From Octopus vulgaris (taxonomy: Eukaryota): 64,000 nucleotides of DNA. The DNA is taken from positions 53,940,001-54,004,000 of the forward strand of contig OX597828.1 in NCBI GenBank assembly GCA_951406725.2, written 5' to 3'. Of the stretch, positions 17,923 to 20,792 are shown one piece after another. The first letter of the stretch is position 1, and the number at the start of each line of letters is the position of its first letter. The notes below the pieces were generated by a model, which saw only the letters and a list, made by a program, of their open reading frames with translations, did not search any database and had not been told where the DNA came from. Position numbers and translations under genes: made by a program.

Positions 17923-20792
17923 TTAAGGTATGTAGAAAAATACAACATGGACAAGAACGTATAACTCTTAGAAGACGACACAATAAACACGGACAGGACA
18001 TTCGAAACCCTCAGTCTTCAGTCAAGAACCGGATCATCGTAGTAATTTCGGCTGATTAATCTTGAGATTACTAGATCACGGCCAGCCCTCCAAGAAAAAC
18101 AAGCAACGAGCATTAGAAAAACTAAGCTGGAAGCGTAGATTTCCTGGAAGAAGGATCGAATGCATACGAACACCAGGACAGCAAAAGGGACAGATATAAA
18201 AAAACAAAAAACAATAATGGAATACAGAAACATGAAATACAGAAGCATTAACGGTGAAAACAACGGTGTCTTACGACTGATAACAAGCAAACAAATTTTT
18301 TCTCTGGCGCAATGGAAAAAGCCTTTATAGTGGCGGACGAAAACAGCGATGTTAACAGAACGAGGGTCAGAGGCTGAAAGGCAGATTTCGGCCAACAGTC
18401 ACGTGACAGAGAAGAGGGAAAAGAAAAGAAAGAGAAGCAAAGGAAGAGAGAGAGAGAGGAGGGACAAACGCAACAAGAGAGAGAAGAGAGAGAAAAAAGG
18501 AATCAGAGAGGAGAAGGGATGGGTGTCGAAGAATGACCTGTGAGTGCAGAGCGAGACAAAGAAATAGGAGGGTAGTGGAAGACTAGACCAAAGAATCAGA
18601 GGAAAGAGAAGAGAAAAAGAGGATGAGTAGAGAGAAAAGAGAGAGAGGGGGACAGATCAAGTAAAAATGAGAGAGAGAGAGAGACAAACAGAGAGTCGTA
18701 CCAATTATTAAGAATATGTGCTCACATAAATGTTAAGGGGGGTACGGGGCGCCTGGAATATATGTTAAGGTATGTAGAAAAATACAACATGGACAAGAAC
18801 GTATAACTCTTAGAAGACGACACAATAAACACGGACAGGACATTCGAAACCCTCAGTCTTCAGTCAAGAACCGGATCATCGTAGTAATTTCGGCTGATTA
18901 ATCTTGAGATTACTAGATCACGGCCAGCCCTCCAAGAAAAACAAGCAACGAGCATTAGAAAAACTAAGCTGGAAGCGTAGATTTCCTGGAAGAAGGATCG
19001 AATGCATACGAACACCAGGACAGCAAAAGGGACAGATATAAAAAAACAAAAAACAATAATGGAATACAGAAACATGAAATACAGAAGCATTAACGGTGAA
19101 AACAACGGTGTCTTACGACTGATAACAAGCAAACAAATTTTTTCTCTGGCGCAATGGAAAAAGCCTTTATAGTGGCGGACGAAAACAGCGATGTTAACAG
19201 AACGAGGGTCAGAGGCTGAAAGGCAGATTTCGGCCAACAGTCACGTGACAGAGAAGAGGGAAAAGAAAAGAAAGAGAAGCAAAGGAAGAGAGAGAGAGAG
19301 GAGGGACAAACGCAACAAAGAGAGAGAAGAGAGAGAAAAAGGAATCAGAGAGGAGAAGGGATGGGTGTCGAAGAATGACCTGTGAGTGCAGAGCGAGACA
19401 AAGAAATAGGAGGGTAGTGGAAGACTAGACCAAAGAATCAGAGGAAAGAGAAGAGAAAAAGAGGATGAGTAGAGAGAAAAGAGAGAGAGGGGGACAGATC
19501 AAGTAAAAATGAGAGAGAGAGAGAGACAAACAGAGAGTCGTACCAATTATTAAGAATATGTGCTCACATAAATGTTAAGGGGGTACGGGGCGCCTGGAAT
19601 ATATGTTAAGGTATGTAGAAAAATACAACATGGACAAGAACGTATAACTCTTAGAAGACGACACAATAAACACGGACAGGACATTCGAAACCCTCAGTCT
19701 TCAGTCAAGAACCGGATCATCGTAGTAATTTCGGCTGATTAATCTTGAGATTACTAGATCACGGCCAGCCCTCCAAGAAAAACAAGCAACGAGCATTAGA
19801 AAAACTAAGCTGGAAGCGTAGATTTCCTGGAAGAAGGATCGAATGCATACGAACACCAGGACAGCAAAAGGGACAGATATAAAAAAACAAAAAACAATAA
19901 TGGAATACAGAAACATGAAATACAGAAGCATTAACGGTGAAAACAACGGTGTCTTACGACTGATAACAAGCAAACAAATTTTTTCTCTGGCGCAATGGAA
20001 AAAGCCTTTATAGTGGCGGACGAAAACAGCGATGTTAACAGAACGAGGGTCAGAGGCTGAAAGGCAGATTTCGGCCAACAGTCACGTGACAGAGAAGAGG
20101 GAAAAGAAAAGAAAGAGAAGCAAAGGAAGAGAGAGAGAGAGGAGGGACAAACGCAACAAAGAGAGAGAAGAGAGAGAAAAAAGGAATCAGAGAGGAGAAG
20201 GGATGGGTGTCGAAGAATGACCTGTGAGTGCAGAGCGAGACAAAGAAATAGGAGGGTAGTGGAAGACTAGACCAAAGAATCAGAGGAAAGAGAAGAGAAA
20301 AAGAGGATGAGTAGAGAGAAAAGAGAGAGAGGGGGACAGATCAAGTAAAAATGAGAGAGAGAGAGAGACAAACAGAGAGTCGTACCAATTATTAAGAATA
20401 TGTGCTCACATAAATGTTAAGGGGGTACGGGGCGCCTGGAATATATGTTAAGGTATGTAGAAAAATACAACATGGACAAGAACGTATAACTCTTAGAAGA
20501 CGACACAATAAACACGGACAGGACATTCGAAACCCTCAGTCTTCAGTCAAGAACCGGATCATCGTAGTAATTTCGGCTGATTAATCTTGAGATTACTAGA
20601 TCACGGCCAGCCCTCCAAGAAAAACAAGCAACGAGCATTAGAAAAACTAAGCTGGAAGCGTAGATTTCCTGGAAGAAGGATCGAATGCATACGAACACCA
20701 GGACAGCAAAAGGGACAGATATAAAAAAACAAAAAACAATAATGGAATACAGAAACATGAAATACAGAAGCATTAACGGTGAAAACAACGGT
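17923..20792 (-). mobile_element. 842-bp tandem array (3 units + 345-bp partial) inserted in (TA)n; Penelope/retrozyme-like non-coding element
   Basis: ttaaggtatgtagaaaaa recurs at 17923, 18765, 19606 and 20448. TA tracts lie on both sides, and a diverged relative is at 50790-50952. The tandem structure is certain; the class is inferred. Confidence 0.8.

What the first reader, a model, noticed from the sequence alone, without database searches (positions are those of the whole stretch)
18011..18087. Candidate pseudoknotted hammerhead: all three core strands present but not in any circularly permuted order
Seen: the minus strand reads GGCUG GCCGUGAUC UAGUAA-UC-UCAAGA UUAA UCAGCC-GAAA-UUACUA CGAUGAUCCGGU UCUUGA-CUGAAGA-CUGA. 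Stem III (UAGUAAU/AUUACUA, 7 bp) and stem I (UCAAGA/UCUUGA, 6 bp) are perfect and in register with an AUC triplet, GAAA and CUGAAGA. The relative at 50923-50952 keeps the 20-nt loop identical and changes stem III compensatorily (GCAAU/AUUGC). Established: types I-III all keep the circular order UH, CUGANGA, GAAA. Here the order is UH, GAAA, CUGANGA. Inference: the 4-nt UUAA linker could tether the ends of stems I and II in place of the usual loop-loop contact, or the core could assemble between tandem copies. Weak points: stem II is only CUGA/UCAG with CC unpaired (upstream GGCUG is an alternative partner), and a longer plain hairpin competes.
Basis: partly seen in the sequence, partly recalled or inferred. 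Interest (0 to 1): 0.85.

Follow-up and report, generated by a model that had tools for sequence, protein, structure and literature searches.

The report
Split-core knotted hammerhead in animal retrozyme
A short non-coding repeat with thousands of copies in an animal genome carries all the parts of a hammerhead ribozyme in a scrambled order, predicted to fold as a double knot with the catalytic core opened at an unusual point, and many copies begin just after the predicted cut, so it likely cuts its own RNA in cells.

Summary
The motif sits once per ~842-bp unit in a 3.4-copy tandem array between (TA)n runs. The genome has 8,642 exact matches to its 3' half. The cyclic order (cut site, GAAA, CUGANGA) is that of the type-SGC/CSG hammerheads of Eckert et al. 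2023, which that paper found only in metatranscriptomes and metagenomes. Stems I and III, the I-II joining helix and the spacings match theirs. The conserved partner is upstream GGCUGG, so the A9-G10.1 link is replaced by a covarying helix plus a hairpin, which breaks Eckert's uninterrupted 'block C'. Of 86 sampled copies, 37 begin 1-28 nt after the predicted cut and none in the 11 nt before it, as expected if cleaved RNA is reverse transcribed. Best reading: a retrozyme-like element, probably moved by a Penelope-like retrotransposon, with a split-core permuted hammerhead. Cleavage itself is untested, stem II is invariant (no covariation), and RNA evidence is weak. Novelty: new variant of a known kind.

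The parts
17924..20792 (-). Tandem array: 3 full units of 841-842 bp plus a 344-bp 5'-truncated unit, with 4 ribozyme copies and no long ORF
   Evidence: copies 99.7-100% identical
17670..17923 (.). (TA)n run at the 3' end of the array (likely target site)
   Evidence: 73 of 86 sampled copies run into a microsatellite 55-135 nt after A9
20792..20851 (.). (TA)n run at the truncated 5' end of the array
18150..18163 (-). Helix IV, 5' strand (pairs with 17998-18012)
   Evidence: 5 of 13 pairs change on both sides, 97% of cells paired; pair probabilities 0.6-1.0
18088..18149 (-). Hairpin V (18140-18149 with 18088-18097), ending flush against G10.1
   Evidence: probabilities 0.7-1.0; left out of the pair count because its register shifts between subfamilies
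18082..18087 (-). Stem II 5' strand GGCUGG (G10.1 at 18087), detached from CUGANGA
   Evidence: first 5 pairs the same in 9 of 9 subfamily majorities; formed in the minimum-energy fold, probability ~0.58; no covariation
18074..18081 (-). [quoted passage not shown]
   Evidence: 2 of 7 pairs change on both sides, 89% paired; same place as in CSG-1/2
18066..18073 (-). Stem III 5' strand and the AUC triplet; predicted cut between 18066 and 18065
   Evidence: H17 is C in 83, A in 21 and G in 1 of 105 copies; step in 5' ends of copies
18056..18065 (-). Stem I 5' strand UCAAGA and UUAA linker
   Evidence: 2 of 6 pairs change A-U to G-C; UUAA or GAUUA also in published CSG and SGC-variant ribozymes
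18040..18055 (-). Stem II 3' strand UCAGCC, GAAA, stem III 3' strand
18015..18035 (-). Joining-helix 3' strand, single U, stem I 3' strand UCUUGA, core CUGAAGA (A9 at 18015)
   Evidence: between subfamily majorities only N7 varies (A/G/U); same pattern in 29 copies not selected on this part
17998..18012 (-). Helix IV 3' strand, starting 2 nt after A9
18398..18405 (-). CACGTGAC motif about 340 nt before the cut; role unknown, possibly a promoter element (inference)
   Evidence: present in 9 of 9 aligned units, one with a single change
50785..50952 (+). Broken copy of another subfamily: 5' flank through stem III (C17 at 50928), then unrelated sequence; start coordinate approximate

Best explanation
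This is a ~770-860-bp non-coding tandem retroelement whose unit holds every hammerhead core strand in the SGC/CSG cyclic order, predicted to fold as a double pseudoknot with the core opened between A9 and G10.1 and likely to self-cleave after AUC at 18066. Inferred fold: helix IV brings the base after A9 next to hairpin V, which ends flush on G10.1, so the two helices replace the single bulged base that many hammerheads carry there. Inferred life cycle: a transcript across tandem units is cut once per unit. Reverse transcription, probably by a Penelope-like enzyme, starts inside the RNA ~140 nt after the cut at a (TA)n target. On a cleaved linear RNA it runs off at the cut and leaves ~110-140-bp copies starting at +1 to +28. 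On uncut or circular RNA it continues and leaves longer or tandem copies like the one in the window. Shown: sequence, copy number, covariation of four helices, end positions of copies. Inferred: catalysis, circles, the partner enzyme.
For: Family: 8,642 exact matches to a 24-nt anchor against 0 for the reversed control. Structure on 38 distinct copies chosen by hand from 105: 95.0% of cells paired and 10 of 37 pairs changed on both sides. None of 500 shuffles reached these values, and slid registers paired 23-50%. Core: 0 of 11 core columns and 0 of 10 stem II columns differ among 9 subfamily majorities, against 60 of 122 other columns (partly biased by my search patterns). N7 and H17 vary as a hammerhead allows. 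Geometry matches CSG-1/2, which cleaved in vitro: 6-bp stem I, UUAA linker, 6-bp stem II, 7-8-bp joining helix next to stem II. Many SGC sequences carry an extra U between A9 and G10.1. 5' ends: 37 of 86 copies start at +1..+28, 0 at -1..-11, 11 at -12..-65, and 38 reach further. Within 11 nt either side the count is 18 vs 0, p about 1e-4. Genome-wide on one strand, 551 places have (TA)4 within 24 nt of the loop anchor and only 57 of them keep the AUC. 105 places join (TA)n exactly to UCAAGA. A young Penelope-like family with RT also ends in (TA)n ~105 nt after its own hammerhead-like motif.
Against: No cleavage assay. I found no paper showing that a hammerhead tolerates helices between A9 and G10.1. 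Stem II has no compensatory change: 0 of 6 pairs, and about 5 of 73 listed copies with G11.3 changed to A are compensated (hand count). The two stem I changes each come with an A-C mismatch in the neighbouring pair. 'Further standard pair types' did not beat the shuffles (477 of 500), and related copies inflate cell counts. In the nested ensemble stem I has probability 0, and stems II and III compete; the program cannot fold pseudoknots. Most short copies start a few bases after the cut rather than at it. The same end test on the Penelope-like element's own motif gave only about a twofold step (17 of 42 places at +1..+6 against 25 at -1..-19, hand count). No sequence homology between the unit and that element beyond simple repeats and one adjacent short copy.
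Confidence: 0.75

Rival explanations
1. The fold is real but no longer catalytic. It serves as a replication or protein-binding structure, and the step in 5' ends comes from a transcription start, a protein nuclease or reverse transcriptase stalling.
For: No activity data. The core is interrupted at a place that Eckert et al. assumed must stay continuous. 5' ends form a plateau from +1 to +28, not a spike. Eight of nine Xenopus retrozyme dimers did not cleave in vitro.
Against: The boundary falls on the predicted scissile bond. Only N7 and H17 vary in the core between subfamilies. G+C-containing positions +12..+21 carry about as many ends as A+T-rich +1..+11, so microhomology with (TA)n does not explain the step.
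Confidence: 0.13
2. The ribozyme works only between copies: strands from neighbouring tandem units or from two RNAs assemble one core, for example CUGANGA of unit n with GGCUGG of unit n+1.
For: Copies occur in tandem. Metazoan Penelope hammerheads are proposed to work as dimers.
Against: All strands lie within ~165 nt of one copy, and helix IV ties the local 5' flank to the base after A9. Tandem spacing does not put GGCUGG directly after A9, so a dimer does not restore a continuous core.
Confidence: 0.07
3. One reading: an ordinary type-SGC order with stem II formed by CUGA just after A9 and UCAG, leaving CC unpaired.
For: These 4 bp can form in the window subfamily and several others.
Against: 78.9% paired, no two-sided change, all 500 shuffles at least as high. 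The bases after A9 are CUGA, UUGA, UAGA, GGGG or UUAG depending on subfamily. It loses the G10.1-C11.1 pair. Duplex energy is -2.0 against -8.3 kcal/mol, and probability is 0.0.
Confidence: 0.05

Closest known systems
Type-SGC and type-CSG hammerhead ribozymes (Eckert et al. 2023, PMC10085705)
   Same: Cyclic order cut site, GAAA, CUGANGA. Four helices including the one joining stems I and II. Short linker from stem I to stem II (UUAA in CSG-1/2, GAUUA in SGC variants). CSG-1 also has G-U as the sixth pair of stem II. Many SGC sequences have an extra base after A9.
   Different: Opened between A9 and G10.1, which splits block C, with helix IV and hairpin V placed there. The usual SGC and CSG openings are closed by 0-3 and 4-6 nt. 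It lies in an animal genome in thousands of copies. The paper reports no SGC or CSG example in a genome of a known organism.
Metazoan non-LTR retrozymes (Cervera and de la Pena 2020, PMC7229834; Li et al. 2026, bioRxiv 10.64898/2026.07.22.740005)
   Same: Non-coding tandem unit, one hammerhead per unit, dispersed monomers and short arrays, unit length within the reported 51-972 bp, Penelope-like elements in the same genome.
   Different: Those are defined by a type I hammerhead and were found with type I descriptors. Circular RNA is not shown here.
[quoted passage not shown]
   Same: [quoted passage not shown] One such motif in this genome has the same stem II strands (L039).
   Different: Type I order with almost no helix III, and inside coding elements. 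Here helix III is 4-7 bp, the fold is pseudoknotted and there is no ORF.

Membership tests
Hammerhead ribozyme | Core C3 U4 G5 A6 N7 G8 A9, G12 A13 A14, A15.1-U16.1, H17 | tested here: met
Hammerhead ribozyme | Stems I and III next to the core with covariation | tested here: met
   stem III 99.5% paired, 1 two-sided pair; stem I 94.7%, 2 two-sided pairs (each with a neighbouring A-C mismatch)
Hammerhead ribozyme | Stem II with G10.1-C11.1 | tested here: inconclusive
   invariant 5-bp GGCUG/CAGCC but no covariation
Hammerhead ribozyme | Self-cleavage after H17 | not testable with these tools
   indirect only: 5' ends of genomic copies step at +1
Types I, II, III | Circular order cut site, CUGANGA, GAAA as a three-way junction | tested here: not met
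   order is cut site, GAAA, CUGANGA; no Rfam hammerhead match
Type SGC / CSG | Cyclic order S, G, C with crossing stems | tested here: met
Type SGC / CSG | Helix joining the free sides of stems I and II, and a short I-to-II linker | tested here: met
Type SGC / CSG | Block C continuous (stem II strand within 1-2 nt of A9) | tested here: not met
   no sampled subfamily has GGCUG after A9; the one genome-wide test with GG after CUGANGA gave 9 places, none restoring it in an intact copy
Non-LTR retrozyme | Non-coding tandem unit, dispersed in many copies, one ribozyme per unit | tested here: met
Non-LTR retrozyme | Type I hammerhead | tested here: not met
Non-LTR retrozyme | Expressed as unit-length linear and circular RNA | tested here: inconclusive
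   a closed 874-nt contig in one run and the same joint in a second; RNA status is the tool's guess, and tandem DNA gives the same joint
Non-LTR retrozyme | Mobilised by a Penelope-like element | tested here: inconclusive
   shared (TA)n ends and 5' inversions; no homology to the one family examined

The most novel reading that the evidence does not exclude
The element is an endogenised descendant of viroid-like circular RNAs that carry SGC/CSG hammerheads. It still makes self-cleaved, circular RNA through a seventh hammerhead permutation with the core split at A9/G10.1. Split cores of this kind, invisible to current descriptors, may sit in other retroelements now listed as lacking ribozymes (for example Naiads). 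The seventh-permutation part alone I put at about 0.7; shared ancestry with viroid-like RNAs is the uncertain part.
Probability: 0.2. Interest if true: 0.93.

Novelty: new variant of a known kind. Interest (0 to 1): 0.8.

Why it matters
The hammerhead is among the best-studied small ribozymes. The 2023 six-permutation scheme rests on the assumption that CUGANGA and its stem II strand cannot be separated. A natural, high-copy counterexample would add a topology and show the A9/G10.1 bulge can carry whole domains, which gives an engineering entry point. It would also move non-circular permutations from unassigned environmental contigs into an animal genome. Type I descriptors and Rfam do not detect it, so ribozyme counts in retroelements may be too low. 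The end positions of genomic copies give an indirect record of cleavage in vivo, which RNA-seq failed to show for one Penelope-like element. A 180-nt in vitro transcription tests the main claim.

Tried and rejected
Rfam: 0 matches at gathering scores in the window, and only one chance-level lncRNA hit at E 2.6 on the unit. A subfamily with a continuous block C: not found among 9 pattern matches. A compensated stem II subfamily: not found at the one pair tested. Distant relatives: a family-specific pattern gave 74 metagenome stretches and 1 viral stretch, and 0 of these 75 had stems I and III. Other animal genomes could not be searched. One search had a mis-specified pattern (3 matches) and was redone. 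Sequencing runs: no RNA holder listed, 14 holders only guessed as RNA. Contigs cannot show ends or strand, and the table of molecule ends was empty. Autonomous partner: 12 full-length copies of one Penelope-like family share no real homology with the unit; other families, including Naiads, were not examined. No CUGANGA on the antisense strand in 9 of 9 units, and the circular folds are only 40-50% paired, so they are not viroid-like rods. The first pair-probability output had wrong indices and was replaced. Earlier scan findings: none. Literature searches that found no report of this fold or element. The library lacks most subscription papers, and I did not see the bioRxiv supplements or repeat databases, where the element may be listed without its ribozyme.

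Full report
Observation. The quoted 77 nt are on the minus strand at 18011-18087. Stem III (7 bp), stem I (6 bp), AUC with C17 at 18066, GAAA and CUGAAGA are in register. The motif occurs four times, once per 841-842-bp unit, in an array at 17924-20792 bounded by (TA)n runs. A descriptor for this order hit those 4 places and 0 of 200 shuffled windows (written after seeing the motif). Rfam has no match. The host is a 2.8-Gb genome in 227 contigs. Its repeats look cephalopod-like to me, which is recalled and untested.

Family. A 24-nt degenerate anchor ending in CUGANGA has 8,642 exact matches, against 0 for the reversed control. Nine aligned units from several subfamilies are 768-856 bp. They have a conserved ribozyme domain, a pyrimidine-rich variable middle, a conserved CACGTGAC, and no ORF over 123 aa. 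From all loci held, 105 distinct full-length copies passed my filters, which allowed few mismatches in GGCTGGCC, CAGCCGAAATT and GACTGANGA. They fell into clusters, 9 of which had 3 or more members.

Structure. The alternative has five counted helices: IV, II (upstream GGCUGG with UCAGCC), the joining helix, III and I. On 38 copies picked by hand from the 105 to cover subfamilies, it pairs 95.0% of cells with 10 of 37 pairs changed on both sides. None of 500 shuffles reached those values, and slid registers pair 23-50%. One measure, further pair types, did not beat the shuffles, and related copies inflate cell counts. Helix IV carries 5 of the two-sided pairs and begins 2 nt after A9. Hairpin V ends flush on G10.1 and was not in the count. 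Stem II has no covariation. Its support is invariance (0 of 10 columns vary among 9 majorities, against 60 of 122 other columns, partly biased by selection), its presence in the minimum-energy fold, and analogy. In 29 copies retrieved by the 5' half only, N7 is G, A or C while the other six core bases are nearly fixed. H17 is C or A in 104 of 105. Stems I, II and III cross one another, so the fold is a double pseudoknot that ViennaRNA cannot compute; stem I scores 0 in the nested ensemble.

Comparison with print. Eckert et al. 2023 (PMC10085705; I read text parts 2-5 of 8, the discussion, supplement parts 5-6 of 42 and search passages, but no figures) define blocks S, G and C and validate types SGC and CSG in vitro. 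They found none of these two types in genomes of known organisms, and they assume that CUGANGA and its stem II strand are never separated by more than 1-2 nt. Their CSG-1/2 have nearly the same spacings as this element, including the UUAA linker. Their SGC variants have GAUUA, and many SGC sequences have an extra U after A9. So this element is the same ring, opened inside block C. Single extra bases at that position are known in a viroid (PMC3705267, passages) and in Penelope minimal hammerheads (PMC4209133, parts 1-2 of 4). I found no report of helices there or of this element.

Indirect evidence of cleavage. I took the first 100 listed places (contig C1), left out 7 already held under earlier ids, and collapsed identical contexts, which left 86. 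Their collinear 5' ends: 37 at +1..+28, 0 at -1..-11, 11 at -12..-65, and 38 further upstream. Two are internal deletions and a few are inversion junctions. With the deletion at +5 removed, the count is 18 against 0 within 11 nt either side, p about 1e-4. Genome-wide, reverse-strand counts (one row per place in the listings) give 551 places with (TA)4 within 24 nt of the loop anchor, of which 57 keep the AUC. The remaining 494 include copies with point changes, so that number is an upper bound. 105 places join (TA)n exactly to UCAAGA. Against: the ends form a plateau, not a spike. The same test on a Penelope-like element's own motif showed only about a twofold step (hand count of 42 places). 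3' ends are near-fixed: 73 of 86 run into a microsatellite 55-135 nt after A9, 7 continue into the unit and 6 do neither.

Mechanism (inferred). Transcription across tandem units, one cut per unit, and possible circularisation as in non-LTR retrozymes (PMC7229834, passages; bioRxiv 2026.07.22.740005, parts 1-3 of 5). Reverse transcription would start inside the RNA at a (TA)n target. Internal initiation is shown for one Penelope-like enzyme, at a site not homologous to the target (PMC11167929, passages), so pairing of the unit's own AUAUAU with the target is only my guess. A young Penelope-like family with 1,100-1,200-aa frames exists here and ends in (TA)n ~105 nt after its own hammerhead-like motif. 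It shares no real homology with the unit, although one short copy lies directly before one of 12 fetched elements. Naiads also target (TA)n and are reported to lack detectable hammerheads (bioRxiv 2021.04.23.441226, passages and section 6); I did not examine them. Expression is unresolved. One run holds a closed 874-nt contig of the unit and a second shows the same joint, but RNA status is a guess and tandem DNA gives the same result.

Verdict. A real, selected structure. It works like a type-SGC/CSG hammerhead inside a retrozyme-like element (confidence 0.75). It is not a member of types I-III, and not strictly SGC or CSG, because block C is split. New variant of a known kind; interest 0.8.

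Noticed in passing
L039:1470-1560 (+) and a second copy on the other strand: Minimal type I hammerhead-like motif with an extra A after A9 and stem II strands like those of the element (GGCUGG/UCAGCC or one change from it). It could hint at origin, but it was retrieved by a pattern containing UCAGCCGAAA.
   Followed up: partly
L338-L349 (e.g. G000:C13:24944500-24954400): Young Penelope-like family (~4.5-kb unit, C-terminal GIY-YIG read by eye, partial tandem repeats, many near-identical copies). It carries a minimal hammerhead-like motif with CUGUUGA in place of CUGANGA.
   Followed up: partly
L054:2000-3132 (-): Another Penelope-like fragment whose repeat holds a hammerhead-like motif with CCGAAGA; a copy of the element is nested at a TA run inside it.
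   Followed up: no
L131, L136, L185, L188, L194, L203, L246: Copies with 5' inversions or head-to-head pairs, a Penelope-type insertion signature.
   Followed up: partly
window 18119-18140 region (minus strand), window subfamily: About 21 nt duplicated inside hairpin V, lengthening the hairpin without breaking it; coordinates approximate.
   Followed up: no
run X13 on window 18011-18068: Summed contig depth of 25,000-42,000 per bin over the ribozyme's 3' half, against about 330 for the rest of this subfamily's unit; the commonest letters there are those of other subfamilies. RNA status is not on record.
   Followed up: no
window 13919-14967: 237-bp tandem repeat, 4.4 copies, 98% identical, with no CUGANGA on either strand.
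   Followed up: partly
window 40470-40955: 46-bp tandem repeat family, about 10 diverged copies.
   Followed up: no
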